Assembly (NCBI RefSeq): GCF_019668485.1
Contig: NZ_AP024619.1
Coordinates: forward strand, 2,263,757-2,287,756
Source: Gelria sp. Kuro-4
GTDB lineage: Bacteria > Bacillota > DTU030 > DUMP01
Length of the DNA stretch: 24,000 nucleotides
Direction of reading: 5' to 3'
Shown here: in pieces, positions 511 to 24,000 of the stretch
Layout: every line of letters begins with the position of its first letter
Position numbering within the stretch: the stretch's first letter is position 1
Notes under the pieces: generated by a model
Databases searched by the model: none
Seen by the model: only the letters and a program-made list of their open reading frames with translations
Told to the model about the DNA's origin: nothing
Position numbers and translations under genes: made by a program

Positions 511-558
511 GTAACGCCCCCACGGCCGTTGTACGCGGGCCCCACGCCGATAAATCTT

Positions 559-584
559 AAGGGCGGCCCTCACGGGCCGCCCTT
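559..584. terminator. Hairpin terminator between convergent genes
   Basis: aagggcggccc-tcac-gggccgccctt is a perfect 11-bp stem with a 4-nt loop, running into TTTTAT on the + strand. It lies between the stop at 508-510 (+) and the stop at 585-587 (-). Confidence 0.6.
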
Positions 585-2020: not shown

Positions 2021-2032
2021 GTTACTGCCTCC

Positions 2033-2857: not shown

Positions 2858-2895
2858 TGACCTTCCTCCTTCGTTCGCGCTCATCCGCCTCTACT

Positions 2896-9138: not shown

Positions 9139-9707
9139 CTGGACTCCTCCTCGCCCCTCCCTAAGTTTACGAGCCAGCGGCCGAGGCGCACCGCCAGGCT
9201 CCCCTCCCACCAGCGGGCCGGCTCGCCGGGCGACACGGCCAGCACGCCGCCGGCAAGGGCCAGCAGGGCTGCCGCAGCCAGCCGGCGCGGGGTGAGCCCG
9301 CCCCGGGCCCAGCCCAGAAGCACCACGCCGGCGGAAAGGCCCAGCGCCCCGCCCGCCAGGAAAGCAGCGCCGCCGCGCACCGCGCTCGCTTTCAGCCCCC
9401 GGGCGGCCTCCGCCACCCGGGAAGAGGCCAGGGCCGCCCGGCCCCAGCGCCCGGCCGCCAGGGCTGCAGCCTCCAGCCGCCGCCCCCAGCGGCCGCTCCA
9501 CGCCGCCGCCCGGCTGCCTGCCAGGAGCCGGCTTCCCGCCAGGTCCTGCGCCAAGAACCGGCCGGCAAGGCTCCCCCGCCCGGCAGCCGTAAGGAAGCCG
9601 GCCGTCCCGGCGAGCAGCCGCGCCGTAACGCTCCCGGCCGCCCAGCGCATAAGCCCCTTAAGCAACCGGCCTGTCAAGCTGTCCTCCCAGCTGCGGGTTA
9701 CGTCCAC
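9135..9707 (-). CDS. Hypothetical Ala/Gly/Leu/Arg-rich membrane protein
   Basis: 190 aa with high GC3 in this frame. GTG start 9707 with GGTGGAGGAG upstream. Its position and its overlapping stop/start with both neighbours argue that it is real. No family recognised. Confidence 0.55.
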   Translation of the reverse strand: MDVTRSWEDSLTGRLLKGLMRWAAGSVTARLLAGTAGFLTAAGRGSLAGRFLAQDLAGSRLLAGSRAAAWSGRWGRRLEAAALAAGRWGRAALASSRVAEAARGLKASAVRGGAAFLAGGALGLSAGVVLLGWARGGLTPRRLAAAALLALAGGVLAVSPGEPARWWEGSLAVRLGRWLVNLGRGEEESR

Positions 9708-9708
9708 G

Positions 9709-10200
9709 TCACTCCTCCACCTTTACGCTCAGCACCGTGGTATTGACGGCAAATTTCAGTCCCTTCACGGCCAGGGAGGCACCCACCCGCATCTCGTAAC
9801 CGCCCATGAGGATCACGTTGGGCGTCACCTGCCCCGGCCCGCGGACGGTCAGGTACACGTCCTTCTTAAAAGGAGATTCCGCCTGGGCCAGGCGGCCGTC
9901 CGCGGTCTCTACTTCCTTGAGCGCCGGACGCACTTCCTTTTTCACCAGTTTCCCGAGCACGGCGTTGGACTTGGTATTAAGAACATTTTCCCCTTCCTGC
10001 ATGGCGTCCGCCGTGGCCTGGCGGACGTCCTCCACCACCAGCACCGCCTCCACCGGCTTGGCCGTGCTGGGATTCACCGCCCGAAGCAGCCGGGAGCGCA
10101 GCCCCAGCCGCGCCGCCACCAAGAGCACCAGGAGCAGCACCGCCAGGTCAATGATGTTGATGCGGCCGAACAGCCGTCCGCGGTCATCTAGCCAGGGCAT
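9709..10200 (-). CDS. DUF4330 family protein (N-terminally anchored)
   Basis: 163 aa: MPWLDDRGRLFGRINIIDLAVLLLVLLV..., then a beta-rich domain. This matches my memory of DUF4330. It overlaps the upstream GT4 stop by 17 nt. Confidence 0.7.
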   Translation of the reverse strand: MPWLDDRGRLFGRINIIDLAVLLLVLLVAARLGLRSRLLRAVNPSTAKPVEAVLVVEDVRQATADAMQEGENVLNTKSNAVLGKLVKKEVRPALKEVETADGRLAQAESPFKKDVYLTVRGPGQVTPNVILMGGYEMRVGASLAVKGLKFAVNTTVLSVKVEE

Positions 10201-11329
10201 CTGTAGACCTCCCTAAAACCTGGTAGTAAACCTTCTCCACCTCCGCCGCCATGCGCGGCAGGGAAAACTCCTCCAGGGCAACCCCGCGGCCGAACTCGCC
10301 CAGCTGCGCGGCATAGTTCGGGTTTTTCAGCACGCGCTCCACCGCCGCCGTGATCAGGTCCGCCCGCGTCGGCTGCTCTGTGCCCCGGCCGCTGAAGTTG
10401 TGCCGCTTGGCCAGGTCCAGGTTCTCCGGCGTAAGAAGCCCCATGAAGCCCGCCTCGCCCGCCACCACCACCGGCTTGGCCGAGGCCATCCCCTCCAGGA
10501 TCACCCGGCCCACGCCGATCACCACCGTCGCCGGAGCGATCAGGGCGGCCGTGTCGGTACGGGCACCCGTCACCAAGATAGCGCCCGTCTTAAAGTCCTG
10601 GTTCACCTTTTCCGCCCAGCGCCGCACCTCGGACAGCTTGTCGCCCTCGCCCACGATAAAGGTCTTCAGGTTGGGACAGCGGCGTAGCAGCTCCGGCACC
10701 GCCTCGATCACGCGCAGGGCAATCTCCCCGCGCGCCCCGCTCAGGCGGCTTATGTACACCACCTTCGGGTCGGCGGGCGCCAGGTGAAACTCCGTCAAAA
10801 CCGGCTCCGGATCGGCCGCGGGGGCAAAGCGCGCCGTGTCCACCCCGTTGGGGATCACGGTGACGCAGTCCGTTTCTACGCCGAAGTTTTTCACCAGGTG
10901 CGTTTTGACGTCGCTGCTCACCGCGATCACGTGCCGCCCCCAGGCGGTGAAGGCCCGCATGCCCAGGTTGGCGCTGTAGATCCCGTGGGCCGTGGTCACC
11001 AGGGGCCGCCGCGTCACCAGGGAGACAAAGTGCCCCACCCAAGCGGGAATGCGCGCGTGGGCGTGGATCACGTCGATCTTTTCCTCGTTCACCAGCCGCG
11101 CCATCAGGTGGAAACCCCGCAGCATGTCCCACGGGGCACGGCTGTGCAGCGGCACCTGGAAGTGTTTTATGCCGGCCTTCAGCAGCTCCTCCTCCAGGCA
11201 ACCGCCCTGGGAGGCCACCACCACCCGGTGGCCGCGCTTTTTCAGTTCCTGCGCCAAGCCTACCACGTGGGTCTCAGCGCCGCCCGTCTCCAAGGTCATC
11301 AGCGCCAGCAGCACGTTCAGCCCGGGCAT
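10184..11329 (-). CDS. Glycosyltransferase family 4
   Basis: LETGGAETHV N-terminal motif plus a GT-B C-terminal domain. Start set at ATG 11329 (MPGLNVLLAL...) with an AAAGGGGAA RBS. The track start at 11362 adds 11 unsupported residues. Confidence 0.88.
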   Translation of the reverse strand: MPGLNVLLALMTLETGGAETHVVGLAQELKKRGHRVVVASQGGCLEEELLKAGIKHFQVPLHSRAPWDMLRGFHLMARLVNEEKIDVIHAHARIPAWVGHFVSLVTRRPLVTTAHGIYSANLGMRAFTAWGRHVIAVSSDVKTHLVKNFGVETDCVTVIPNGVDTARFAPAADPEPVLTEFHLAPADPKVVYISRLSGARGEIALRVIEAVPELLRRCPNLKTFIVGEGDKLSEVRRWAEKVNQDFKTGAILVTGARTDTAALIAPATVVIGVGRVILEGMASAKPVVVAGEAGFMGLLTPENLDLAKRHNFSGRGTEQPTRADLITAAVERVLKNPNYAAQLGEFGRGVALEEFSLPRMAAEVEKVYYQVLGRSTDALAR

Positions 11330-11365
11330 CTTTGTTCCCCTTTCCTCGCCGCTTGCCACCATTAC

Positions 11366-11779
11366 TTACTCTACCGTCGCCCCGCCCCGCGCCAGGATGA
11401 CGGCCGGCGTCAGCGCCTTGAGGCCGCGCCCGTCCCCGCGCGGGATGAGGAGCAGGTGATTGACCGGCACCGCCTCGCCGGCCTGGATGTCCCGCCCGGC
11501 CGTCAGGTCGGCCAGGCCGCCCTGCGGGCTGGTCACCGCTGCAGCCCGGCCGGCCCGGAGGATAAGCTCCGTCCCGGCCGCGGCGCGCACCGTTTGCCCG
11601 CTCTCAAGCTCCAGCACCTGCAGCACCGCCAGCCTGTCCACGTAGCTTTTGGCCACCAGCGGGTCGGCATCGCTGCCCGGCTCGGGCGCCGCCGCCCCCA
11701 CCAGGTGCCCTGCGACCGTCCCCGCCCCGGCCAGGGCGGCTGCCAGGAGCAAAGCTCCCACCAGATACCAGCGTTTCAC
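11366..11779 (-). CDS. Small exported or membrane-anchored protein of unknown function
   Basis: 137 aa. The N-terminus MKRWYLVGALLLAAALAGAG is a signal/anchor-like segment. GTG start 11779 with AAGGAGG 7 nt upstream. It is the first gene of the cell-wall operon. Confidence 0.65.
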   Translation of the reverse strand: MKRWYLVGALLLAAALAGAGTVAGHLVGAAAPEPGSDADPLVAKSYVDRLAVLQVLELESGQTVRAAAGTELILRAGRAAAVTSPQGGLADLTAGRDIQAGEAVPVNHLLLIPRGDGRGLKALTPAVILARGGATVE

Positions 11780-11830
11780 CTTCCACCCTCCTTACGCCGT
11801 CGCCTGCATTCTGTGATCTCCCCACCCTCG

Positions 11831-12402
11831 GTACACCCGATCAGCGTGAGAAACGTACTTCGGGCTGCCAGGGGGACAGGTCGGGCATGGGGACGGGTTG
11901 GGCATGGGGACAGGTTGGGCCCTCATCTCAACCCTGGATTGCCAACCTGTCCCCCATTCCATCCTGGATTGCCGACCTGTCCTTCCTGCGCCGGTGATCC
12001 CAGCTTACACGGCACACCCACCTCCCGGCAGCAACGTCTCCCAGGTTGCCATGGGGACAGGTCGGGCATGGGGACAGGTTGGGCCCTCGCCTCAAACTCC
12101 GAATTGCCAACCTGTCCTTCCTGCGCCGGTGATCCCGGCCACACGGCACACCCGCCTCCCGAGACCGACGCCCCCCAAGGTTGCCATGGGGACAGGTCGG
12201 GCATGGGGACAGGTTGGGCCCTCATCTCAACTCTGGATTGCCAACCTGTCCCCCATTCCATCCTGGATTGCCAACCTGTCCTTCCTGCGCCGGTGATCCC
12301 AGCTTACACGGCACACCCACCTCCCGACAGCAACGTCTCCCAGGTTGCCATGGGGACAGGTTGGGCCCTCGCCTCAACTCCGAATTGCCAACCTGTCCCC
12401 AT
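11831..12402 (+). repeat. Repeat array A of the nested-palindrome family (8 heads, 6 tails, 3 linkers)
   Basis: Direct reading. Heads ATGGGGACAGGT(C/T)GGGC are at 11871, 11887 (degenerate), 11904, 12051, 12068, 12186, 12203 and 12350. Tails GCC(A/G)ACCTGTCC are at 11941, 11971, 12106, 12240, 12270 and 12387. Segment 12179-12402 is a near-duplicate of 11862-12117. Confidence 0.92.
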
Positions 12403-12404
12403 AC

Positions 12405-13509
12405 CTAATTAACCTGGCTTCTCAGATACGCCTTGATAAACGGGTCCAGCTCGCCGTCCATCACCGCCTGCACGTTGCCCATTTGCTCGCCGGTACGGTG
12501 GTCCTTCACCAAGGTATAGGGTTCGAAGATGTACGATCGGATCTGGCTCCCCCAGGCGATCTCCTGCTGCTCCCCGCGCAGGGCGTTGAGCTTGGCCTCT
12601 TCCTCCTTGCGCTTGAGGTCGAAGAGCCGGGCCTGCAGGATGCGCATGGCCGTGAGGCGGTTGGCGTGCTGGGAGCGCTCGTTCTGGCAGGTGACCACAA
12701 TCCCCGTGGGCAGGTGGGTGATGCGCACGGCGGAATCGGTCTTGTTCACGTGCTGGCCGCCCGCCCCGCCGGAGCGATAGGTGTCGATCTTCAGGTCCTC
12801 CGGCCGGATCTCCACCGCCATGTCCTGGTTTACTTCTGGGATCACGTCCAGGGAGGCAAAGGAGGTGTGGCGCCGGCCGGCCGCGTCGAAAGGCGAGTGG
12901 CGCACCAGCCGGTGCACCCCGCGCTCGCCCTTGAGGTACCCGTAGGCGTTGGGCCCGCTCACCAGGAAGGTGGCGCTCTTGATACCGGCCTCTTCGCCCG
13001 GGAGCACATCCCAGAGCTCCACCTTAAAGCCGCTCTTTTCCGCCCAGCGCGTGTACATCCTGAGCAGCATCTCCGCCCAGTCCTGGGCCTCGGTACCGCC
13101 GGCGCCGGCGTGGAGGGAGAGGATGGCGTTCAGGCGGTCGTAGGGGCCGGCCAGCAGCGCCTCCAGGTGCAAATCCTCGTAGTTCCGCTTGAGCTCGGCC
13201 AGCCCCGCCGCCACCTCGTGCGCCGTCTCGGCATCCTCCGCCTCCGCGCCCAGCTCGCAGAGGACGGCAAGGTCCTCTGCCTCTTTGGCCAGCGCCCGGT
13301 AGCGCTCCACCCTTTCCTTGAGGGCGGAAAGCTCCGGCATCACCTTCTCCGCCCGCGCCGGGTCGTCCCAGAAGCCAGGCTTGGCTATTTCCGCTTCCAG
13401 TTCGCGGATGCGGGCCTCTTTGCCTGCGATGTCAAAGAGAGACCCCCATTTCGCGGATGCTGTCCTCCAGCACGTTCAGCTCGCGCTTCAGGTCTTCATA
13501 AAGCAGCAT
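12405..13509 (-). CDS. prfB: Peptide chain release factor 2, two frames joined by a programmed +1 frameshift
   Basis: Frame 0 is ATG 13509 ... GTC TCT CTT TGA (MLLYEDLKRELNVLEDSIREMGVSL*). The +1 frame continues DIAGKEARIRELE... into the 312-aa ORF carrying SPF and GGQHVNKTDSAVRITH (GGQ) motifs. Total ~367 aa. Confidence 0.95.
13431..13447 (-). promoter_or_regulatory. prfB autoregulatory +1 frameshift site (GGGGG-N6-CTT TGA C)
   Basis: The minus strand reads ATGGGGGTCTCTCTTTGAC. The slippery CTT codon, an in-frame TGA followed by C, and an internal SD-like GGGGG upstream match the canonical RF2 frameshift cassette. Confidence 0.9.
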
Positions 13510-13564
13510 TACCATCACTCCCACTCGATCCTTCTTCGCAGGTTTGAGAAAAACAGTGAAAAGT

Positions 13565-16213
<2,649 letters not shown>

Positions 16214-16291
16214 CAAAACACCCTCTTTATGGGTCTCTCAGCGGCAGCAATGAAACCAGGGCGCCCCTTCCTCCGTAAGCGCCGTCTCTTT

Positions 16292-16320
16292 ATTTTAGCA
16301 TTTCGCCCGCGTCAAGACAA
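16292..16320 (-). promoter_or_regulatory. Putative sigma-A promoter of secA-prfB
   Basis: The minus strand reads TTGTCT-17 nt-TAAAAT with a TGC extended -10 (TGCTAAAAT), ~75 nt upstream of the secA start. Confidence 0.5.
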
Positions 16321-16328
16321 TAGAAAAG

Positions 16329-16345
16329 GCGCCCGCGCGGGGCGC
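16329..16345 (-). terminator. Putative intrinsic terminator of the 16414-17094 gene
   Basis: The minus strand reads GCGCCC-CGCGC-GGGCGC followed by CTTTTCTATT. Confidence 0.5.
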
Positions 16346-16391
16346 AGCTCCCAGGCACGCTCAATCACCGCCGCAAGCGGAGAGTGCGATC

Positions 16392-16448
16392 GCCATGGGG
16401 ACAGGTCGGGCCCTTATCTCAACTCCGGATTGCCGACCTGTCCCCCAC
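16392..16448 (+). repeat. Solo hairpin unit of the nested-palindrome family
   Basis: gccATGGGGACAGGTCGGGC-ccttatctcaactccggatt-GCCGACCTGTCCCCCac: one head, one loop and one tail. It overlaps the last ~12 codons and the stop of the minus-strand CDS. Confidence 0.88.
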
Positions 16449-17094
16449 TCCTATTAGCCCCAGGCAGGCATTTCTCCACCGCCTTGAGCGTGGCCTGCGC
16501 CACACCCATGGCCATGTCCCCCGGGATAAAGCTGGCCCCGGCCAGGCTCTCCTCGCGCGCCGGCGTCACCGCCGCCACGGTCACCACCGCCACCGGGCGC
16601 TCGCCCACGTCGAGGAGCCGCAGCCCCTCCAGCGCCAGCGCCACCTCGCCCTTCAGGTACTGCTCCACGGCGCTCAACGTCGCTACGGCCACCAGGCGCA
16701 GGCGGTTGTGCGTGGCCGCCGCCCCCTGCGCCTCGCCGGTAAAGAGCTCTCCCTCTATCTCCAGGCCCACGCTGCAGCTGGCGCGGGCCCCGCTCACCTT
16801 CACATTGACATCCACCACGCGCACCCAGGCGGCCGCCCCCGGCAGCCCCGCCTCCCAATCCAGCTGCGCGACACTCACCTTTTTGTGATCGATGGGAAGG
16901 TTAAAGTGCGCCATGAACGCGGATTCGATGTCCCGGACGATCTGCTTGGGGCTGCGCCCTGCCCCGGCCAGCACGTGGATCTCCTGAATGGCGCTTGTCT
17001 CGTCGAGAACCACACGGGCCGAGATTACGTCCCGTATCTGGCGCAGGATGCCCTCCAGCTCTGCTGCCGAAACCCCTTTTTTGATGTCGGGCAA
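16414..17094 (-). CDS. Uncharacterised protein (226 aa) in the hpf-secA interval
   Basis: High GC3. Start set at TTG 17094 (GGAGGA 6 nt upstream) rather than the track start at 17193. No family recognised. The C-terminal residues ...GGQVGNPELR* are encoded by the repeat unit. Confidence 0.62.
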   Translation of the reverse strand: MPDIKKGVSAAELEGILRQIRDVISARVVLDETSAIQEIHVLAGAGRSPKQIVRDIESAFMAHFNLPIDHKKVSVAQLDWEAGLPGAAAWVRVVDVNVKVSGARASCSVGLEIEGELFTGEAQGAAATHNRLRLVAVATLSAVEQYLKGEVALALEGLRLLDVGERPVAVVTVAAVTPAREESLAGASFIPGDMAMGVAQATLKAVEKCLPGANRSGGQVGNPELR

Positions 17095-17326
17095 AGTTCT
17101 TCCTCCATTCTCTTCTAAGTTGCAGGCATCATCCCCGGGCCGCGCACAAGAAAATGGTGGCATACAAACGGCTCTGGCATTGCTGTCGGACAAGGAGGGA
17201 GAAGCAAGAAAAAGGCCGAAGGAAACCCACGTACAGAATAATCCATGTAATTTACCTACCTGCTATTATTTTCGACCTCAGAGAGATTTTTCCTGCTATG
17301 CCTGTAACCCGGGACAGGCACGGGCC

Positions 17327-17355
17327 AATATATTTGTAGTGTTGTATAGTGTCAG
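17327..17355 (-). promoter_or_regulatory. Putative sigma-A promoter in the AT-rich island downstream of hpf
   Basis: The minus strand reads CTGACA-17 nt-TATATT. It lies immediately after the hpf terminator hairpin and ~230 nt upstream of the TTG start at 17094. Confidence 0.5.
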
Positions 17356-17363
17356 AAAGCAAG

Positions 17364-17399
17364 GCCGGCCCCGCGCCCCCGGGCGGCGCGGCGGCCGGC
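17364..17399 (-). terminator. Putative hpf terminator (GC-rich hairpin)
   Basis: GCCGGCCGCCGCGCC / GGCGCGGGGCCGGC arms (~14 bp with one bulge), followed on the minus strand by CTTGCTTTCTG. Confidence 0.55.
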
Positions 17400-17500
17400 T
17401 CGCCTACGTTCTTATCAAGTTAGGCCGGTCGTCACCGCCGTGCGGGAAACAGGCCGGCGGGTCGGCCTCGGCGGCCGTGCCGGGTGCCCGCACGAGCTTC

Positions 17501-18031
17501 TTAACGCAGCGGCTCGATGAGCCCGTAGTTCCCATCGCGCCGGCGGTAGACCACGTTCACCTCTTCCGTTTCGGCGTTGCGGAACACGAAGAAATCGTGA
17601 CCCAAAAGGTTCATCTGGAGGAGGGCCTCGTCCACCGGCATAGGCTTTACGGCGAAGCGCTTGGTGCGCACCAGGTGCGGCTCTTCTTCATCGGCCGGGC
17701 GCCCGCCGACTCCGGCGGCCAGGTCCAGGACGCTGCCGTTTTTCACTTTACGGGCGAGGCGGGTTTTATACTTTTCAATCTGCTTCTCCAGCTTTTCAAT
17801 CACCATGTCGATGGAGGCGTACATGTCGCCGCTGGCCACTTCGCCCCGGAGCAACCGGCCGCCCACCGGCACCGTCACCTCCACCATGTGCCGGTCCCGT
17901 TCCACCCCGAGCGTTACCGTGGCTTCTGTAATGTCGTCCAGGAGTTTCGGGAGCTTGCCCATTTTCTTTTCGACATAGTCGCGCAAGGCAGGCGTGATTT
18001 CGATGTTTTTCCCGCGGACAGTGATCCGCAT
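17501..18031 (-). CDS. hpf: Ribosome hibernation-promoting factor (long HPF, YvyD/RaiA family)
   Basis: MRITVRGKNIEITPALRDYVEKKMGKL..., plus the C-terminal dimerisation domain KRFAVKPMPVDEALLQMNLLGHDFFVFRNAETEEVNVVYRRRDGNYGLIEP. Start ATG 18031 with AAAGGAG 8 nt upstream. Confidence 0.93.
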   Translation of the reverse strand: MRITVRGKNIEITPALRDYVEKKMGKLPKLLDDITEATVTLGVERDRHMVEVTVPVGGRLLRGEVASGDMYASIDMVIEKLEKQIEKYKTRLARKVKNGSVLDLAAGVGGRPADEEEPHLVRTKRFAVKPMPVDEALLQMNLLGHDFFVFRNAETEEVNVVYRRRDGNYGLIEPLR

Positions 18032-18075
18032 CCTGACCACTCCTTTCTACGCGAAAGCCTGCGTGCGTGGGGCCG

Positions 18076-18616
18076 CACGGCAACCCGATTCCCGTAGGAA
18101 ACGTCTCCCGGGTTGCCATGGGGACAGGTCAGTCCTCACGGCAAACTCACCTGCCGGAAGAAACGTACCCTGGGTTGCCAGGGGGGACAGGTCGGGCCCT
18201 CGTCTCTACCCCGAATTGCCGACCTGTCCTGCTTGCGCCGGTCATCCCGGCTACACGGCACACCCACCTCCCGACAGAAACGTCTCCCGGGTTGCCATGG
18301 GGACAGGTCAGTCCTCACGGCAAACTCACCTGCCGGAAGAAACGTACCCTGGGTTGCCATGGGGACAGGTCGGGCCCTCGTCTCTACCCCGAATTGCCGA
18401 CCTGTCCTGCTTGCGCCGGTCATCCCGGCTACACGGCACACCCACCTCCCGACAGAAACGTCTCCCAGGGTTGCCATGGGGACAGGTCGGGCCTCACGGC
18501 AAACTCACCTGCCGGAAGAAACGTACCCTGGGTTGCCATGGGGACAGGTCGGGCCCTCGTCTCAACCCTGAATTGCCGACCTGTCCCCATACCGCTAAAC
18601 AGACCTGTCCCCATAC
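18076..18616 (+). repeat. Repeat array C: 179-bp higher-order tandem repeat (~2.8 units) of the nested-palindrome family
   Basis: GGTTGCCATG recurs at 18111, 18290 and 18469 (period 179). Units 1 and 2 differ at only a few positions. Each unit is a 62-bp head-only subunit plus a 117-bp head-loop-tail-linker subunit. An extra partial tail sits at 18601-18614. Confidence 0.93.
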
Positions 18617-18617
18617 A

Positions 18618-18646
18618 TTATTCCCCGCGCCCGAGGAAAATCCTTC
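18618..18646 (-). promoter_or_regulatory. Sigma-H-like promoter candidate upstream of array C and hpf
   Basis: The minus strand reads GAAGGATTT-11 nt-GGGGAATAA. This fits the Bacillus sigma-H consensus as I recall it (RNAGGAWWW-N11-12-RNNGAATWW) at every specified position. Confidence 0.4.
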
Positions 18647-18667
18647 CCGCCCCGCGCAAACCAAAAG

Positions 18668-18692
18668 GGCCTTCGGTGAGCTTCCGAAGGTC
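18668..18692 (-). terminator. Intrinsic terminator of the ABC transporter operon
   Basis: The minus strand reads CCTTCGG-AAGCTCA-CCGAAGG followed by CCCTTTTGGTTTG, 13 nt after the ATPase stop codon. Confidence 0.65.
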
Positions 18693-18704
18693 CGAAGGTC
18701 CAGC

Positions 18705-19427
18705 TTAGAGGATTTTGCTTAAAAACGCCTGGGTGCGCTCATTCTGCGGGTTCTGGAAGATGGCGGCCGGTTTGCCTTCCTCGACGATCTTCCCGTCGTC
18801 CATAAACAGCACCCGGTCACCCACCTCGCGGGCAAAGCCCATCTCGTGGGTCACCACCACCATCGTCATCCCGTCGCGGGCGAGCTGCTTCATCACATCC
18901 AGCACCTCGCCGATCATCTCCGGGTCGAGCGCCGACGTGGGCTCGTCAAAGAGCATCACCTTCGGCTGCATCGCCAGCGCCCGGGCGATGGCCACGCGCT
19001 GCTGCTGCCCCCCGGAAAGCTGCCGCGGGTAGGCGTCCGCCTTCTCGGAAAGCCCCACCTTCGCCAAGAGGTCGCGGGCGATCTCCTCCGACTCCGCTTT
19101 CCCCATTTTGCGCACCTTCTGCGGCGCCAGGGTGATGTTATCCAGCACCGTCATGTGCGGGAAGAGGTTGAAGGACTGGAACACCATCCCCACCTCCTGC
19201 CGCACCCGGTTGATGTTGGTGGCCGAGTGGTTGAGCTTGATCCCGTCCACCACAATCTCGCCCTCGCTCGGCTCCTCCAGGTAGTTGATGCAGCGAAGGA
19301 GCGTCGACTTGCCCGAACCGCTCGGGCCGATGATCACAACAACCTCGCCTTGGTCCACCTTATTCGTAATGCCTTTAAGGACGTGCAGGTGCCCGAAGTG
19401 CTTGTGCACATTCCTAAGCTCGATCAC
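18705..19427 (-). CDS. Polar amino-acid ABC transporter, ATP-binding protein
   Basis: 240 aa: Walker [25 protein letters not shown], Walker [12 protein letters not shown]. GlnQ/HisP-like. GTG start overlaps the permease stop by 14 nt. Confidence 0.95.
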
Positions 19428-20073
19428 CTGTACCCAACCTCCTCTCCGCCCGCCGCACCACTTGGCTGAGGGACAGCGTAAGGATTAGATAGATAACGCC
19501 TACGGTGATGTAAATAGGAAACGGCTCTACCTTGCGCCCCACCATCATCTGCCCGTAGCGCATGAGCTCCGGCACGGCGATGGTGGACATGAGGGCCGAA
19601 TCCTTAAGGAGCGTAATGAATTCGTTGCCCAAGGCCGGCATGATGTTGCGGAAGGCCTGGGGCAGGATAACGTAGCGCATGGACTGACCAAAGGTCATAC
19701 CCAGGGAACGTGCCGCCTCGCGCTGGCCGCGATCGATGGACTGGATGCCGGCGCGCACAATCTCCGAAACATAGGCGCCGCTGTTGATGCTGAAGGCCAG
19801 CCAGCCGGCGAGCTCCGGGGGGAGATTTACGCCCGTCACCTGCGGCAGCCCGTAATACACCAGGAAAAGCTGCACCATAAGCGGCGTGCCGCGGATAACC
19901 TCCACGTAAAAGGTGGCGATGCCATAGATTACGGAGTTCTTGGACAGGCGCGCCATGCCGCCGAAAGTACCGATCATAAGTCCAGTAAGAACGGAAAGAA
20001 ACGTGATCAGAATGGTGACGCGGACGCCGATCAAAAGGAGCGGCATTATCTGCGGGACTACTCCCCAATCCAT
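19414..20073 (-). CDS. Polar amino-acid ABC transporter permease (His/Glu/Gln/Arg/opine family)
   Basis: 219 aa with multiple TM segments and the EAA-type loop [23 protein letters not shown]. Confidence 0.93.
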
Positions 20074-20120
20074 ACCTTGTCAATTTCTCCTCTCCCCAGG
20101 ATGACAAAGAGACACACGAC

Positions 20121-20147
20121 GGCCGGCGGGCAAAGCGCCCGCTGGCC
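20121..20147 (-). promoter_or_regulatory. Intercistronic GC-rich hairpin between the binding-protein and permease genes
   Basis: The minus strand reads GGCCAGCGGGC-GCTTT-GCCCGCCGGCC (11 bp, one mismatch), followed by GTCGTGTGTCTCTTTGTC. Confidence 0.45.
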
Positions 20148-20175
20148 GCCACCTGTGCTCCCCGGTGGTAGTGCT

Positions 20176-21030
20176 TTACTTAAACCACTTATCGTAAATC
20201 TGCTGGTAGGTGCCGTCTTCCTTGAACTTCTTGAGGGCGGCGTTGATCTTGTTCAGGAGATCGGTGTCCTCCTTGCGCAGGGCGATACCGGTGTACTCGG
20301 CCACGAACGGCTTGTCGCTCACCAGCTTAACCTTGTCGGCGTGCTTGTTGGCGTAAGGCACGCCCACCGGCAGGTCCACCACCACGGCGTCCAGGTTCCC
20401 GTTCTGCAGGTCCAGGAACGCCTGCGGGTAGTTGTCGTAGCGCTTGATCTCCTTGATGTCCACCTTTTTGCCTGCGTACTCACCGGTGCCTTCCTGCATG
20501 CGGGTCAGGACCTCATCGGCGGTGGTGCTGATCTGCACGCCGAGCTTCTTGCCGGCGAAGTCCTTCTCACTCTTGATCCCATCGTAGTCCTTGCGAACCA
20601 TAATCACCTGGCCGGCCTCAAAGTACGGGTCCGAGAAGTTCATCTTCTCTTTGCGCTCGTCGGTGATCGTTACGCCGGAGATGATCACGTCGTACTTCTT
20701 GGCGAGCAGCCCGGCGAAGATCGTCTCCCAGGCCACATCGGTGAACTCCACCTTCATCCCCAGCTCCTTGCCCAGGGCGTTGGCCAGGTCGACATCGAAG
20801 CCTTCAAACTCTCCCTTGTCGTTCACACTTTCAAAGGGTGGGAACGCCGCGTTAAAACCTACCCGGAGCACCGGCTGCTCCGCCGGCTGCTGCGCCTGGC
20901 CCTGCTCCGCCGGCTGACCGCCCTCCGCCGGCTTTTGCGGCTCCGCCGCCGGCTTCGAGCTGCAACCCGTCACCAGAAGCGACACCGCCAGGAGAACAAC
21001 CAGGCCGAGAGTGAAGAACTTTTTCACCAC
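20176..21030 (-). CDS. Amino-acid ABC transporter substrate-binding lipoprotein
   Basis: 284 aa. Signal peptide with a lipobox (LLVTGCSS), a low-complexity PAEQ linker, then a type-2 periplasmic-binding fold (GFDVDLANALGKELG..., DVIISGVTITDERK). Confidence 0.92.
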   Translation of the reverse strand: MVKKFFTLGLVVLLAVSLLVTGCSSKPAAEPQKPAEGGQPAEQGQAQQPAEQPVLRVGFNAAFPPFESVNDKGEFEGFDVDLANALGKELGMKVEFTDVAWETIFAGLLAKKYDVIISGVTITDERKEKMNFSDPYFEAGQVIMVRKDYDGIKSEKDFAGKKLGVQISTTADEVLTRMQEGTGEYAGKKVDIKEIKRYDNYPQAFLDLQNGNLDAVVVDLPVGVPYANKHADKVKLVSDKPFVAEYTGIALRKEDTDLLNKINAALKKFKEDGTYQQIYDKWFK

Positions 21031-21072
21031 TTGAACCCCCTGTCCGCGTTATTGCCGTCCTTCATGTTCATC

Positions 21073-21101
21073 ATTATACACGCCGAGGCATAATGTTACA
21101 A
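21073..21101 (-). promoter_or_regulatory. Putative sigma-A promoter of the ABC operon
   Basis: The minus strand reads TTGTAA-17 nt-TATAAT (perfect -10), ~40 nt upstream of the GTG start at 21030. Confidence 0.55.
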
Positions 21102-21350
21102 GTCCCAATTTCAGCCGTGTTGTGCGCCTACGCTCCGCTGCCTCATCAGTATGCATCTTTATGCATATTTATGCCGGTGCCTCTCCCTGAGCTTCGACTC
21201 TCACCGGTCCCCGTTCGGCCCCGATGGCCCGCGTGTGCCGGCTGCCCGCTGCGCGGACAGGTGCAGCGCCTTATGTCACCTGCGGCACCGGCTACAGACC
21301 CGGTTGCATGCTCCTACGGTCCCTATGCCTGCACCGGCGGGCCACTTTCC

Positions 21351-21368
21351 TGTGGATAATGTGGATAA
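21351..21368 (+). promoter_or_regulatory. Two abutting perfect DnaA boxes
   Basis: TGTGGATAATGTGGATAA is two head-to-tail copies of the reverse complement of TTATCCACA. Two 7/9 matches lie nearby in the same orientation (21372-21380 TGTTGAAAA, 21403-21411 TGTGGGCAA). Confidence 0.7.
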
Positions 21369-21486
21369 ACCTGTTGAAAACTTCCGCCTCAGGGGCTTGT
21401 CCTGTGGGCAAACCTGGGGAGAGCTCCGCGCACCGTGTCGAAGTCCCACGAACGGTCCCGGTCCCTGTCGCCTATTGCCGTGGGAG

Positions 21487-21967
21487 TTGCCGACCTGTCC
21501 TATCCTGCGCCGGTCCCCACTGCGCACACGCACACCCACCTGCCGAGAGCAACGGATCCTGGGTTGCCATGGGGACAGGTCGGGCCTCACGGCACACCCA
21601 CCTTCCGACAGAAACGTACCCTGGGTTGCCATGGGGACAGGTCGGGCATGGGGACAGGTCGGGCCCTCAATGGTCACCCTGGATTGCCGACCTGTCCCCC
21701 ACTCCTATCCCCGAATTGCCGACCTGTCCCACCCTGCGCCAGTTCCTACTACGCACACGGCACACCTACCCGCCGAAAGTAACGGATCCTGGGTTGCCAT
21801 GGGGACAGGTCGGGCCCTCGTCTCCTCCCCAGATTGCCGACCTGTCACCTCTCCGGAAGCCTTTGTGCAACTCCACGGCACACCCGACTTCCAAAAGAAA
21901 CGCCTCCAGGGTTGCCATGGGGACAGGTCGGGCCCTCGTCTCTACCCAGAATTGCCGACCTGTCCCC
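21487..21967 (+). repeat. Repeat array D of the nested-palindrome family (5 heads, 5 tails, mosaic order)
   Basis: Orphan tail at 21489. Heads at 21569, 21631, 21648, 21799 and 21917. Tails at 21686, 21718, 21836 (degenerate) and 21954. One nested double hairpin at 21631-21730. Confidence 0.9.
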
Positions 21968-21985
21968 TCTCCTCTAATACAAAAA

Positions 21986-22006
21986 CCCGGGCACCACCTG
22001 CCCGGG
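21986..22006 (-). terminator. Intrinsic terminator of the zinc-ribbon gene
   Basis: The minus strand reads CCCGGGCA-GGTGG-TGCCCGGG followed by TTTTTGTATT, 20 nt after the stop codon. Confidence 0.7.
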
Positions 22007-22025
22007 TAATTTGTCCTTCGTCCGG

Positions 22026-22334
22026 TTACCTCACGTTGGCCGCCCGCATTGCTTCATAGCACTCGCGGCAGTACACAGGGCGGTCGTTGCGCGGCTTAAA
22101 GGGCACCTGGGTGGGCTGGCCGCAGTTCGCACACACAGCGTCGTACATCTCCCGCGGGGGCCTGCCAGCGCCAGTACGGTTGGCATTGGCCTGCTTGCGC
22201 GCCTGTCGGCATTCGCGGCAGCGCGAGGGCTCGTTGGTGAAGCCCTTCTCCGCATAAAACTCCTGCTCACCGGCCGTAAACACGAACTCTTTGCCGCAAT
22301 CCCGACAGGTTAGCACTTTGTCCTCAAAGGCCAT
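22026..22334 (-). CDS. Small zinc-ribbon protein (two CxxC...CxxC pairs)
   Basis: 102 aa from ATG 22334 (GAGGGGA RBS): MAFEDKVLTCRDCGKEFVFTAGEQEFYAEKGFTNEPSRCRECR...AVCANCGQPTQVPFKPRNDRPVYCRECY. This is a duplicated zinc-ribbon module. Confidence 0.8.
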   Translation of the reverse strand: MAFEDKVLTCRDCGKEFVFTAGEQEFYAEKGFTNEPSRCRECRQARKQANANRTGAGRPPREMYDAVCANCGQPTQVPFKPRNDRPVYCRECYEAMRAANVR

Positions 22335-22364
22335 GCGAAAAAATCCCCTCACTTTGGATTGATT

Positions 22365-22633
22365 ACCATAGCTTAGCTGACCTGGTCTTTGCCCCCACAC
22401 CCGCCTGCTGGAAGTCTCGCTCCGGGCCTTCGCCCCTCACTACTCCTTCTCTCCGGGCCGCTCGGAAAGCCCTGTTCAGAACCGGCCACCCTCCGGTCCT
22501 CAGGCCCCTCCCGCGCTCCCGGGCAGGACTTACCCCTAAGCCGCCCCATGCTCAGCAGTCCTTCAACTGCCTTACGTGGATCGTTTCGCCCGCGGCTGGC
22601 ATCGATTTGCAACCACAGACCTAAGCCATTGGT
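22365..22633 (-). ncRNA. Candidate structured RNA (long 5' leader of the zinc-ribbon gene or an independent ncRNA)
   Basis: ~269 nt, GC-rich and non-coding-looking, directly downstream of a near-consensus promoter. Its first ~25 nt (22633-22609) can pair with 22392-22365 (~20 bp in three segments). It has several internal hairpins (for example AGGACCGG-AGGGUGG-CCGGUUCU). I recognise no Rfam family. Confidence 0.4.
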
Positions 22634-22639
22634 AGCCTC

Positions 22640-22668
22640 ATTATAGAGCAGCTGGCAGAAAAAAGCAA
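22640..22668 (-). promoter_or_regulatory. Near-consensus sigma-A promoter
   Basis: The minus strand reads TTGCTT-17 nt-TATAAT. The predicted start is near A22633. Confidence 0.6.
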
Positions 22669-22705
22669 GCTGTTTTGGGAAGATTTTGAGCCTGACCCCT
22701 TCTTC

Positions 22706-23200
22706 TTATCCACGCGAATCGATGAAGCGTCCTTCGCCCGTTACATCCTTCGGCCGGTACTGGAAGGCTGTGTGCCGGAGCTTGACCAACTGTTCCATGT
22801 CTCCCTGGAGCTTGCGTTTAAAGCCTGTCAGTGCCTCTACCAACTCCGTGTTAAGAGCAAGTGCCCGTTCCAAGGCGCCGAGCCGCCCTTCATAGGCCGC
22901 CTTGAGTTCCTCTTTCCAAAGGGCCGGCGCTGCACCCAAAAGCCCGCCCGGCCCCGCAGCGGTGCGCCCCAGCGCCAGTCTAAGGGTCCCTGCCTGCTTC
23001 TCCAGCTGTTCTGACTCGGCCATCAGTTTAGCGCGATCGGCCAAGGCACCCAGAGCCGTCTCAAGGGCACCTTCCTTGATGGCGGTAAGCGCTGCTTCAG
23101 TACATGCGACCATCTGATCGGTAATAGTCTTCTGGTTATGCCAGAATTTAGCCAAGTTGCTCCAGCCGTCTTGGGCGGGAGCCGCTTCAGCGGCCGCCAA
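22706..23200 (-). CDS. Hypothetical helical protein in the FliT/FlgN position downstream of fliS
   Basis: ~164 aa from TTG 23200 (GGAGGAGG 8 nt upstream; 14-nt overlap with the fliS stop). Ala/Leu/Glu-rich. The link to FliT rests on gene order only. Confidence 0.5.
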   Translation of the reverse strand: MAAAEAAPAQDGWSNLAKFWHNQKTITDQMVACTEAALTAIKEGALETALGALADRAKLMAESEQLEKQAGTLRLALGRTAAGPGGLLGAAPALWKEELKAAYEGRLGALERALALNTELVEALTGFKRKLQGDMEQLVKLRHTAFQYRPKDVTGEGRFIDSRG

Positions 23201-23603
23201 CGTTGAGACCTCCTCCGGCAACAGGGCCAGCTACACCCTGGTGCATCACCTCAGCCCATGCTTCGCGTAAGCCGGATAGAAGCGTCACTACCTCGGCGGC
23301 CGGCTGGGGATCACGTTTGATGTTGGCTTCTATCAGGCGACGGGACATGTAGTCGTACAGGCGGTAGAGATTGAGCGCCACGCTCCCCGCATCGAGGTCC
23401 AAAGAACTCGTAAGTTCGGCCACCATATCCTGCGCCTTAAGCAAAGCCCGGTGGGCTTCCTCTGTCCGCCCGGCCTTCAGCGCCTCGCTTCCATCGCGCG
23501 CCAGTCGAATGGCTGCATCGTACAGCATGAGTAGCAACTGGCCCAGCGAGGCTGTATTCACCTGAGTCTCCTGATATCTGGCATAAGGGTTTTCCCCCAA
23601 CAC
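23187..23603 (-). CDS. fliS: Flagellar export chaperone FliS
   Basis: 138 aa: NPYARYQETQVNTASLGQLLLMLYDAAIRL...LNLYRLYDYMSRRLIEANIK is a typical FliS four-helix sequence. GTG start with GGAGGA 8 nt upstream. Confidence 0.9.
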   Translation of the reverse strand: MLGENPYARYQETQVNTASLGQLLLMLYDAAIRLARDGSEALKAGRTEEAHRALLKAQDMVAELTSSLDLDAGSVALNLYRLYDYMSRRLIEANIKRDPQPAAEVVTLLSGLREAWAEVMHQGVAGPVAGGGLNVGGR

Positions 23604-23722
23604 GTCTGCATTCCTCCAAATACACTGCTTGCCCGTTCAGTCGTCTCAACTGCATAATCCACCTGTTGACCAGTTCAACCCTGATATGCCGCCTGTCCGA
23701 GCGAACCCGCACGCCTTACCCA

Positions 23723-24000
23723 TCAACTCCCCAGGGTTTTGAGCTGTCCCGCCAGCCACTCTCCTTGGGCCTGCGCCTGGGACAGTATGACTTCCAGTTG
23801 CGTGAATTGCCGCCGCAGGTTGTCCTCCCGCAGTGCCAGCCGCTGATCCATCCGGTCGATTTGGTCTTGAAGGTCCTTGATTTGCGCGTCCAGTGAATTT
23901 TCGCGGGACGTGATGAGGCCGGTCGTGTCACTGGAGGTCACGCGCTGAAGGTAGCCATCCAAGCGGGTAGCTACACCGTCGGTCTGCGAGGTAAATAAAG
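23723..24000 (-). CDS. fliD: Flagellar filament capping protein FliD, C-terminal part (5' end outside the window)
   Basis: The frame is open to the right edge. The C-terminus ...GLITSRENSLDAQIKDLQDQIDRMDQRLALREDNLRRQFTQLEVILSQAQAQGEWLAGQL matches the conserved FliD C-terminal coiled coil. Confidence 0.85.
   Translation of the reverse strand, partial: LFTSQTDGVATRLDGYLQRVTSSDTTGLITSRENSLDAQIKDLQDQIDRMDQRLALREDNLRRQFTQLEVILSQAQAQGEWLAGQLKTLGS

What the first reader, a model, noticed from the sequence alone, without database searches (positions are those of the whole stretch)
22365..22668. Near-consensus promoter driving a ~270-nt closed, GC-rich structured RNA upstream of a zinc-ribbon gene
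Seen: TTGCTT-17-TATAAT (22668-22640, minus strand) is the best sigma-A promoter in the window. The ~269 nt that follow have no convincing ORF. The predicted 5' end (ACCAAUGGCUUAGGUCUGUGGUUGC, 22633-22609) can pair with GCAAAGACCAGGUCAGCUAAGCUAUGGU (22392-22365) over ~20 bp in three helical segments. That closes the whole region into one domain ending 15 nt before the GAGGGGA RBS of the zinc-ribbon gene. Internal hairpins include AGGACCGG-AGGGUGG-CCGGUUCU and GCAGU-UGAAGG-ACUGC. I could not match it to SRP RNA, RNase P, 6S, tmRNA or the riboswitch classes I can recall. Inference: it is a novel cis-regulatory leader, or an ncRNA. One candidate is the raiA-motif RNA class, which I recall being described in Bacillota near hpf/raiA; relative to Bacillus gene order, this is the slot upstream of hpf.
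Basis: partly seen in the sequence, partly recalled or inferred. Interest (0 to 1): 0.65.

Follow-up and report, generated by a model that had tools for sequence, protein, structure and literature searches.

The report
raiA-motif RNA fused to zinc-ribbon gene
The structured RNA is a textbook copy of the already-described raiA-motif (ModT) non-coding RNA, so it is not new; the only fresh point is that here, and in many Clostridia, it is transcribed together with a small zinc-ribbon protein gene of unknown function.

Summary
Window 22629-22368 (minus strand) matches Rfam RF03072 (raiA RNA) end to end at 166.4 bits (gathering score 101.3, E 2e-42). Every element of the published cryo-EM architecture maps onto it with canonical pairs: P1a/b/c with GU and GGU bulges, P3a/b, PK1, PK2, P4-P8 and the UUAGNNGUAA linker. 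The only peculiarity is a long (70-nt) P7 arm. On 76 relatives the mapped structure is 96% paired (32-42% when partners are slid), and 30 of 46 pairs show compensatory changes. The TTGCTT-17-TATAAT box is position-conserved in relatives, but it is not the best promoter match in the window, and the RNA is not GC-enriched over background. The added finding: no terminator separates the RNA from the zf_Tbcl zinc-ribbon gene 33 nt downstream. The same same-strand, ~38-nt arrangement recurs in 20/44 Bacillota raiA loci and 28/77 zf-homolog loci, including Thermosediminibacter oceani. I found no mention of this linkage in searchable literature. Verdict: new member of a known family; interest is low to moderate.

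The parts
22663..22668 (-). -35 box TTGCTT (3 of 6 matches to TTGACA; the TTG is kept)
   Evidence: Read directly from the sequence. TTGCnn -35 boxes recur at the same position in zf-linked raiA loci.
22640..22645 (-). -10 box TATAAT (6 of 6), 17 nt after the -35 box; predicted transcription start is A22633
   Evidence: A TATAAT ending 8-13 nt before P1 is present in 34/38 zf-linked and 16/21 unlinked Bacillota raiA loci. C. difficile ModT is likewise driven by a single SigA promoter (PMC11706538).
22368..22629 (-). raiA-motif (ModT) non-coding RNA, 262 nt; subtype without P2 and with P7/P8
   Evidence: Rfam RF03072, 166.4 bits, gathering score 101.3, E 2.2e-42, model positions 1-209 of 209. 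Architecture mapped; covariation.
22612..22629 (-). P1 5' strand: P1a (RNA positions 1-9), GU bulge (10-11), P1b (12-14), P1c (15-18)
   Evidence: All 16 pairs are canonical. All 9 P1a pairs show compensatory change in relatives.
22581..22605 (-). P3a/P3b hairpin with AU/GAAA internal loop; its apical loop AGCCGC (22597-22592) forms the 5' strand of PK1
   Evidence: In one search, P3a has 3 of 3 pairs compensatory and PK1 has 4 of 6.
22554..22571 (-). P5 hairpin (7 bp, GAAG loop)
   Evidence: Six of seven pairs covary cleanly. The U65C change in near-relatives turns a G-U pair into G-C.
22530..22548 (-). PK-L strand: PK2 5' side (U82, G83), PK1 3' strand (22544-22539) and the conserved single-stranded linker UUAGGGGUAA
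   Evidence: The linker matches the UUAGA(C/A)GUAA consensus that He et al. 2026 propose as the KhpA/KhpB site.
22453..22522 (-). Extended P7 arm, 70 nt (the 58-nt 'insertion' relative to the Rfam model)
   Evidence: Comparable long P7 arms occur in L048, L077, L143, L145 and L152. Three substitutions in near-relatives fall here, and two of them preserve pairing.
22411..22449 (-). P8 arm with E-loop-like AGUA / GAGA internal loop
   Evidence: The 3' strand differs at one position from the GAA consensus.
22368..22408 (-). 3' strands of P6 (22408-22404) and P4 (22398-22395), the 8-nt linker GGGCAAAG containing PK2 (22394-22387), P1c, the GGU bulge, P1b and P1a
22335..22367 (-). 33-nt A/U-rich unstructured spacer carrying the RBS GAGGGGA (22350-22344); no terminator
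   Evidence: It is 58% A+T against 34% for the window. The median spacer in 45 linked loci is 38 nt.
22026..22334 (-). zf_Tbcl + zf_Tbcl_2 zinc-ribbon protein gene (102 aa, two CxxC...CxxC modules), function unknown
   Evidence: Pfam PF13451 (6e-26) and PF23477 (6e-21); NCBIfam TIGR04272. Homologs lie at the same place after raiA in 20/44 Bacillota loci.
21985..22007 (-). Intrinsic terminator (9-bp stem with 7 G-C pairs, then a run of T) that ends the RNA-zf transcription unit
   Evidence: Equivalent terminators follow zf in most linked loci.

Best explanation
Window 22629-22368 (minus strand) encodes a raiA-motif (ModT) non-coding RNA. This is a compact, pseudoknotted RNA closed by a three-part P1 helix. 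It is transcribed from its own sigma-A-type promoter (TTGCTT-17-TATAAT, predicted start near 22633). No terminator follows the RNA, so transcription most likely continues through a 33-nt A/U-rich spacer into the 102-aa zinc-ribbon gene and stops at the terminator at 22007-21985. That would give a primary transcript of about 650 nt. What is shown here: family identity, architecture, covariation, positional conservation of the promoter, absence of a terminator, and conservation of the RNA-zf arrangement. What is inferred: the stable ~265-nt RNA is released from, or outlives, the zf message, probably by cleavage in the single-stranded spacer. It then acts in trans as in Clostridium acetobutylicum and C. 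difficile, where the RNA is very abundant, its loss disturbs the transition to stationary phase, sporulation and aggregation, and it binds KhpA/KhpB in vitro. Its biochemical activity is still unknown in any organism. Co-transcription would give the zf protein the same expression programme as the RNA.
For: Family: Rfam RF03072 at 166.4 bits against a gathering score of 101.3, E 2.2e-42, full-length match, and the only Rfam hit in the window. Architecture: P1a/b/c with GU and GGU bulges, P3a/b, PK1 (6 bp), PK2, P4, P5, P6, P7, P8, the linker UUAGGGGUAA and the 3' linker GGGCAAAG are all present with canonical pairs, in the numbering used for the cryo-EM structures (PMC12968392). Covariation: on a MAFFT alignment of 76 distinct raiA RNAs, 96.0% of cells are paired against 32-42% with slid partners, and 30 of 46 pairs change on both sides, including pairs in PK1 and PK2. 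No shuffle out of 500 reaches the observed values. Promoter: a TTGnnn-16/17-TATAAT box lies at a fixed distance 5' of P1 in 34/38 zf-linked and 16/21 unlinked loci. Homology to near-identical digester contigs begins at about 22699, just 5' of the -35 box. C. difficile ModT also has a single SigA promoter. Co-transcription: there is no terminator-like site between 22368 and 22334. A terminator-like hairpin lies within 90 nt of the RNA end in 1/41 linked loci against 9/24 unlinked ones. The spacer stays unpaired in the full-length fold, and terminators follow zf. Linkage: zf is at +1, on the same strand, in 20/44 Bacillota raiA loci and 0/70 Actinomycetota or other loci. raiA lies directly upstream of 28/77 zf-homolog metagenome loci. 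The same arrangement is found in T. oceani and a Fervidicola-like contig with the minimal 113-nt raiA. Function in trans: PMC10861870 and PMC11706538.
Against: No expression data exist for this organism, so the transcription start, read-through and processing are all predicted. The -35 box is weak (3 of 6), and read-through from the upstream fliS-orf171 genes cannot be excluded because no terminator lies between 22706 and the promoter. Published work describes raiA genes as usually free-standing, hundreds of nt from the next ORF, so this arrangement departs from the described norm. The zf gene is not tied to raiA: 49/77 close zf homologs have no raiA upstream.
Confidence: 0.85

Rival explanations
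1. The zinc-ribbon protein is a dedicated partner of raiA RNA, either a ribonucleoprotein subunit or a factor working in the same pathway. Co-transcription would then exist to couple their synthesis.
For: Orientation is strictly conserved and the spacing is narrow (median 38 nt; 43 of 45 spacers are 62 nt or less) across diverged lineages whose zf proteins are only 57-75% identical. The arrangement persists even where the RNA is reduced to the 113-nt core. The protein has two highly conserved Cys4 modules and basic tails. Soares et al. state that they found no strong candidate partner protein.
Against: 49/77 close zf homologs lie elsewhere with no raiA nearby, for example in Sporomusa ovata and Desulfosporosinus acidiphilus. 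No Actinomycetota raiA locus has zf, nor do the studied Clostridium-type loci in my sample. Linked zf proteins mostly form one clade, so vertical inheritance could explain much of the conservation. There is no structural or sequence link to known RNA-binding proteins. The proteins found so far with raiA are KhpA/KhpB.
Confidence: 0.2
2. The RNA is a cis-acting leader (riboswitch-like) that controls the zinc-ribbon gene, as the reader first proposed and as Rfam's type label 'Cis-reg; riboswitch' suggests.
For: It lies on the same strand, 33 nt upstream, with no intervening terminator or promoter, and this is conserved in dozens of loci. Rfam labels the family this way.
Against: There is no expression platform. 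No terminator or anti-terminator is present, the RBS lies in an unpaired A/U-rich spacer, and it is not predicted to pair with the RNA. The same RNA class stands alone with its own terminator, or precedes unrelated genes (hpf, secA, SBP), in other lineages. It complements in trans in two species (PMC10861870, PMC11706538). In vitro tests gave no evidence of small-molecule binding (PMC5737381).
Confidence: 0.07
3. There is no functional link. The zf gene simply uses the strong promoter of a stable RNA gene, and the arrangement persists by descent.
For: Linked zf proteins cluster largely in one clade. In another clade, unlinked zf homologs sit about 40 nt downstream of a different compact, tRNA-like element that has its own TATAT box. 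This suggests a general habit of riding behind stable-RNA promoters rather than a raiA-specific tie.
Against: Linkage appears on several separate branches of the zf tree and in taxonomically distant carriers: Christensenellales, Oscillospiraceae-type MAGs, T. oceani, and this high-GC digester organism. Spacer length is tightly constrained.
Confidence: 0.35
4. The region is a decayed coding sequence, or a chance GC-rich fold.
For: Mechanical ORFs of 79 and 85 aa overlap it. High-GC sequence folds stably by chance, and the shuffled mean energy is already -105 kcal/mol.
Against: Rfam E is 2e-42. Covariation includes both pseudoknots. 59 positions are invariant across 76 sequences, although some of these lie inside my search anchors.
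Confidence: 0.01

Closest known systems
raiA motif RNA / ModT (Rfam RF03072; Weinberg 2017, Soares 2024, Lence 2024, He 2026)
   Same: Full-length covariance-model match. All helices, both pseudoknots, both P1 bulges and the conserved linkers are present. It has a single sigma-A-type promoter immediately 5' of P1, as in C. difficile. It lies in the neighbourhood of hpf (raiA), secA, prfB and a solute-binding-protein gene, with flagellar genes upstream as noted in 2017.
   Different: The P7 arm is unusually long (70 nt). There is no dedicated terminator. A zinc-ribbon ORF starts 33 nt after P1, whereas published descriptions stress free-standing genes far from the next ORF. hpf is 4.3 kb away, and comFC is not upstream.
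To-raiA, the minimal 113-nt raiA of Thermosediminibacter oceani (cryo-EM target in PMC12968392)
   Same: Same local synteny: raiA, about 40 nt, zf_Tbcl gene, SBP_bac_3, permease, ABC ATPase. The zf proteins are 70% identical.
   Different: To-raiA lacks P5-P8 and scores below the Rfam gathering threshold (57 bits). The window copy has the full set of peripheral arms.
E. coli 6S RNA (ssrS) co-transcribed with ygfA (comparison from my own knowledge, not tested here)
   Same: An abundant, stable regulatory RNA made from the 5' part of a transcript that continues into a small protein-coding gene, and released by processing.
   Different: The RNA family, structure and function are unrelated. Processing of the raiA-zf transcript is only inferred.
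OLE RNA with adjacent oapA and related partner genes (cited in PMC10861870)
   Same: A large, conserved, orphan Bacillota RNA whose neighbouring gene encodes a small protein. For OLE, that neighbour turned out to be a partner protein.
   Different: For raiA and zf no interaction has been shown, and the linkage is present in only part of the family.

Membership tests
raiA motif RNA (RF03072) | Covariance-model score at or above the curated gathering score | tested here: met
   166.4 bits against 101.3; E 2.2e-42; model positions 1-209 of 209; not truncated.
raiA motif RNA (RF03072) | Closing P1 made of P1a (9 bp), a GU bulge, P1b, a GGU bulge and P1c, with G10, G14 and the C of the base triple | tested here: met
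   All are present at the published numbering. P1a has 9 of 9 compensatory pairs. P1b and P1c are invariant, partly because they lie inside my search anchors.
raiA motif RNA (RF03072) | Core: P3a-P3b with an A-rich asymmetric loop, P4, and pseudoknots PK1 and PK2 | tested here: met
   The P3 loop is AU/GAAA. PK1 is 6 bp, PK2 is U-A and G-C, and P4 is 4 bp. P3a, PK1 and PK2 covary in 76 relatives.
raiA motif RNA (RF03072) | Conserved single-stranded linker UUAGNNGUAA between PK1 and P6, and the 8-nt 3' linker GGNCRAAG | tested here: met
   UUAGGGGUAA and GGGCAAAG.
raiA motif RNA (RF03072) | Peripheral P5, P6 and the P7/P8 domain, with an E-loop in P8 (the 68% subtype) | tested here: met
   P5, P6, P7 and P8 all form. 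The E-loop 5' strand AGUA is present, but the 3' strand reads GAGA instead of GAA, a one-position deviation.
raiA motif RNA (RF03072) | Typical neighbourhood: raiA/hpf downstream (66%) and comFC upstream (74%) | tested here: inconclusive
   hpf is downstream on the same strand but 4.3 kb away. Upstream are fliD, fliS and orf171, with no comFC in the window. Flagellar genes upstream, and SBP, secA and prfB downstream, are documented variants.
raiA motif RNA (RF03072) | Abundant, stable, discrete transcript that acts in trans; single copy per genome | not testable with these tools
   Needs RNA-seq or Northern blots and genetics. Only one copy is present in the 24-kb window.
Riboswitch / cis-regulatory leader | An expression platform (terminator/anti-terminator, or RBS sequestration) coupled to the aptamer | tested here: not met
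   No terminator lies between the RNA and the ATG. The RBS sits in an unpaired A/U-rich spacer. A terminator-like site follows the RNA in only 1/41 linked loci.
Other housekeeping RNAs (tmRNA, SRP, RNase P, 6S, tRNA) | A match to the respective Rfam model | tested here: not met
   raiA is the only family reaching its gathering score in the window.

The most novel reading that the evidence does not exclude
In a large subset of Bacillota, including this organism, Christensenellales/Oscillospiraceae-type gut and rumen bacteria, and Thermosediminibacter oceani, the small two-module zinc-ribbon protein (zf_Tbcl + zf_Tbcl_2) encoded about 38 nt downstream of raiA RNA and co-transcribed with it is a physical or functional partner of the RNA. 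If so, it would be the first gene-neighbourhood handle on the still unknown biochemical function of raiA/ModT.
Probability: 0.2. Interest if true: 0.65.

Novelty: new member of a known kind. Interest (0 to 1): 0.3.

Why it matters
On its own, this locus adds one more copy to a family already catalogued in more than 2,700 species, so it changes nothing. [quoted passage not shown] This work found a recurrent, tightly spaced, terminator-less raiA-zf_Tbcl unit. It occurs in 20 of 44 sampled Bacillota raiA loci and in the organism whose raiA structure has been solved. That gives a cheap, direct experiment: test whether the zf protein binds raiA RNA, and whether a zf deletion phenocopies a raiA deletion. 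It also shows that some raiA RNAs are probably made as the 5' part of an mRNA. If the linkage proves to be mere promoter sharing, the locus is ordinary.

Tried and rejected
(1) Function of the zf protein. A PDB sequence-profile search gave only weak LIM/C2H2 hits (best E 0.014). The AlphaFold2 model (pLDDT 84) had no significant Foldseek match in PDB (best E 0.11). The only literature hit concerns archaeal CxxC-x17-CxxC small proteins that bind zinc. None of this gives a functional lead. (3) Other known RNAs upstream of the unlinked zf genes: the Rfam gathering scan of 20 loci found only one borderline tRNA hit, and ARAGORN found no tRNA. (4) Hidden minimal raiA copies in the 'no raiA' loci: excluded by anchor search, after a sensitivity check of nhmmer on the T. 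oceani copy. (5) RBS sequestration by the RNA: the full-length fold shows only a weak local hairpin rich in G-U pairs, and it is not conserved in other loci. (6) The supplementary gene table of Soares et al. is not held, so I could not check whether zinc-ribbon genes appear there. (7) The organism's class could not be determined. The exact zf protein is found only in anaerobic-digester and biogas assemblies. The 58-73% G+C suggests a high-GC Bacillota lineage, but that is a guess. (8) Six of the 120 genome loci were chance pattern matches and were discarded.

Full report
1. Observation.
On the minus strand, TTGCTT (22668-22663) is followed after 17 nt by TATAAT (22645-22640). An A at 22633 is at the expected start distance. 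The 269-nt stretch folds into one closed domain with an energy z-score of -3.12, and none of 200 shuffles folds as well.

Three details need correcting:
- The -35 hexamer matches TTGACA at only 3 of 6 positions. The consensus scanner therefore does not list the site, and two other sites in the window score higher: 10/12 at 21101-21073 and at 17355-17327.
- The RNA's 64% G+C equals the local background of 58-73%.
- hpf is not the next gene.

2. Identity.
A scan of the whole window against Rfam 15 at gathering thresholds returns a single hit. It is RF03072 (raiA RNA) at 22629-22368 on the minus strand, with 166.4 bits against a gathering score of 101.3, E 2.2e-42, and all 209 model positions matched. 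It contains a 58-nt insertion in one hairpin.

I then mapped the architecture defined by the 2024 consensus and the 2026 cryo-EM structures (PMC10861870, PMC12968392) onto this copy. Numbering from 22629 reproduces the published numbering (G10, G14, U19, G20). The elements are:
- P1a, 9 bp
- GU bulge
- P1b, 3 bp
- GGU bulge
- P1c, 4 bp
- a GCAA turn in place of P2
- P3a/P3b with an AU/GAAA internal loop
- PK1, 6 bp, between the P3b loop and the strand after P5
- P4, 4 bp
- P5, 7 bp
- PK2 (U-A, G-C)
- the linker UUAGGGGUAA
- P6, 5 bp
- a 70-nt P7
- P8 with an AGUA/GAGA internal loop
- the 3' linker GGGCAAAG

Every assigned pair is canonical. The copy belongs to the subtype without P2 and with P7/P8. 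Its only peculiarity is the long P7, a peripheral arm that published work describes as variable in length.

3. Independent test with relatives.
Of these, 114 contain raiA by nhmmer and 6 were chance matches.

A MAFFT alignment of 76 distinct full-length RNAs was scored against my hand-mapped structure, pseudoknots included:
- 96.0% of cells form standard pairs, against 32-42% when the 3' partners are slid by 1-3 columns.
- 30 of 46 pairs show changes on both sides.
- None of 500 shuffles reaches the observed values.
- P1a (9 of 9 pairs), P3a, PK1, P5, P6 and one PK2 pair all covary.

Caveat: P1b, P1c and part of P4 lie inside my search anchors, so their invariance says nothing either way.

Five near-identical contigs from anaerobic digesters differ from the window RNA at four positions. 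All four are in P5 or P7, and three preserve pairing.

4. Promoter and transcript ends, tested comparatively.
A TTGnnn-16/17-TATAAT box ending 8-13 nt before P1 is present in 34/38 zf-linked and 16/21 unlinked Bacillota raiA loci. It often has the same TTGCnn form as here. Homology between the window and the near-identical digester contigs starts at about 22699, just 5' of the -35 box. Upstream of that point the flagellar genes differ. This agrees with the single SigA promoter mapped for C. difficile ModT.

Downstream, no terminator-like site lies between the RNA and the ATG at 22334. The first one is at 22007-21985, after the zinc-ribbon ORF. A terminator-like hairpin within 90 nt of the RNA end occurs in 1/41 zf-linked loci but in 9/24 unlinked ones. 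The spacer is short, A/U-rich and unpaired:
- 33 nt here; median 38 nt across 45 linked loci, with 43 of the 45 at 62 nt or less
- 58% A+T here, against 34% for the window as a whole

5. Genomic context.
On the minus strand the order is: fliD, fliS, orf171, raiA RNA, zf_Tbcl/zf_Tbcl_2 gene, repeat field, SBP_bac_3, permease, ABC ATPase, hpf, orf259, secA, prfB.

In the sampled loci, hpf, secA/prfB and an SBP_bac_3 homolog are the recurrent downstream neighbours. Coriobacteriia have SBP about 250 nt downstream and hpf about 1.4 kb downstream. Acidimicrobiia have secA 40-100 nt downstream. This matches the associations published in 2017 and 2024. The window therefore carries the union of the known neighbours, with zf inserted directly after the RNA.

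6. The raiA-zf unit.
A tblastn search with the window's zf protein hits 20 of the 120 genome loci. The hit is always on the RNA's strand and always begins 38-116 nt after the 3' anchor. That is 20 of 44 Bacillota raiA loci and none of 70 Actinomycetota or other loci.

In the reverse direction, I took the 80 best zf-homolog loci from metagenomes (59-75% identical to the window protein). Of the 77 that could be evaluated, 28 have raiA directly upstream on the same strand. The other 49 have none, and a sensitivity check showed that minimal variants would have been detected.

Named genomes show both states:
- Thermosediminibacter oceani, whose 113-nt minimal raiA was a cryo-EM target, has that RNA 40 nt upstream of zf, followed by SBP, permease and ATPase exactly as in the window.
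- A Fervidicola-like contig shares even the upstream fliD-fliS-fliT genes.
- In Sporomusa ovata and Desulfosporosinus acidiphilus, zf has no raiA nearby.

In a neighbour-joining tree, the linked zf proteins form one large clade plus a few small groups.

The main texts of the raiA papers do not mention a zinc-ribbon gene. No paper in the searchable library contains both 'raiA motif' and 'zinc'. Soares et al. state that the next ORF is commonly hundreds of nt away and that they detected no strong candidate partner protein. Their supplementary gene table is not available to me.

7. Mechanism.
Shown: this is a raiA-class RNA gene with its own promoter-like box, no terminator, a conserved short spacer, a strong RBS, and a terminator after zf.

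Inferred: a raiA-zf primary transcript of about 650 nt, from which the compact RNA survives or is cut out. The RNA would then act in trans as in C. acetobutylicum and C. difficile. There it is highly abundant, it affects entry into stationary phase, sporulation and aggregation, it is linked to c-di-GMP levels, and it binds KhpA/KhpB at about 2 uM in vitro.

A cis-regulatory role is unlikely because there is no expression platform and the RBS is free.

Whether zf is a partner, a co-regulated passenger or a mere promoter-sharer is open. The partial linkage and the clade structure argue for caution. The tight spacing across distant lineages argues for some selective value.

The zf protein gives no functional clue. 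Pfam and NCBIfam place it in domain families of unknown function. No relative has a solved structure. The confident AlphaFold2 model has no significant PDB neighbour.

8. Novelty and verdict.
The RNA is a new member of a known, curated and structurally solved family. The raiA-zf co-transcription unit is a context variant that I could not find described. It is a modest but testable lead into the unknown function of raiA. Interest 0.3. The partner hypothesis has probability about 0.2 and would merit about 0.65 if true.

Limitations:
- Taxon labels come from record titles, and at least three look mis-binned.
- All transcript features are predictions.

Noticed in passing
window 21276-21980; also about 18137-18588 and about 11946-12400: An intergenic repeat family with units of about 118 nt containing the palindrome GGGGACAGGTCGG...CCGACCTGTCCCC. 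It fills the gap between the zf terminator and the SBP gene and recurs at two other intergenic sites in the window. Copy number in the zf-SBP gap differs among otherwise 98-99% identical digester contigs (gap 796-1186 nt). It looks like a REP/MITE-like element.
   Followed up: partly
loci L134, L150, L166, L173, L176, L183, L192/L196, L201, L186/L190/L195 (about 35-120 nt upstream of the zf start): zf homologs that lack raiA are preceded by a conserved element of about 75 nt, TATAT|GCCCGGGTAGCTTAA..AGAGCGTTG..CAAAGGTGTCGG-TCCGAAT-CCGTC-GCAGGGCA. It has a tRNA-like layout: a closing stem plus D-arm-like and T-arm-like hairpins. Rfam gives only one borderline tRNA hit (29.3 bits, L183), ARAGORN finds no tRNA, and only 3 pairs covary. 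It may be an undescribed tRNA-like leader.
   Followed up: partly
L207:2348-2460 (T. oceani) and L210:2351-2463: Minimal 113-nt raiA RNAs score 57 and 50 bits, well below the Rfam gathering score of 101.3, so routine Rfam annotation misses this subtype.
   Followed up: yes
window about 22699 (compared with L121-L126): Near-identical digester contigs (about 99% over promoter, RNA and zf) lose homology to the window just 5' of the -35 box. They carry flagellin(-), FlaG and a 133-aa FliS upstream. The window instead carries fliD, a 138-aa FliS and orf171. This points to a recombination breakpoint at the promoter edge.
   Followed up: partly
window 13437-13431 (minus strand): The canonical prfB programmed +1 frameshift site is present: GGGGGUCUCUCUUUGAC (CUU UGA C preceded by an SD-like GGGGG). 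This explains why the prfB ORF at 13343-12405 starts inside the PCRF domain.
   Followed up: yes
window 22706-23221 (minus strand): A 171-aa ORF between fliS and the raiA promoter has no Pfam or NCBIfam hit. It occupies the position of fliT; the Fervidicola-like contig has a weak FliT hit there, plus an SLT-domain gene.
   Followed up: no
window 1-12000 compared with 12001-24000: G+C is 67-73% in the first half (glycosyltransferase-rich genes) and drops to 58-65% in the half that holds prfB, secA, hpf, the ABC transporter, raiA and the flagellar genes.
   Followed up: no
loci L012, L063, L096: Contigs labelled Alloprevotella or Bacteroidaceae carry Clostridia-type raiA. L012 and L063 also carry the zf gene, and L096 has an hpf homolog downstream instead. 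These are probably binning errors in the source assemblies.
   Followed up: no
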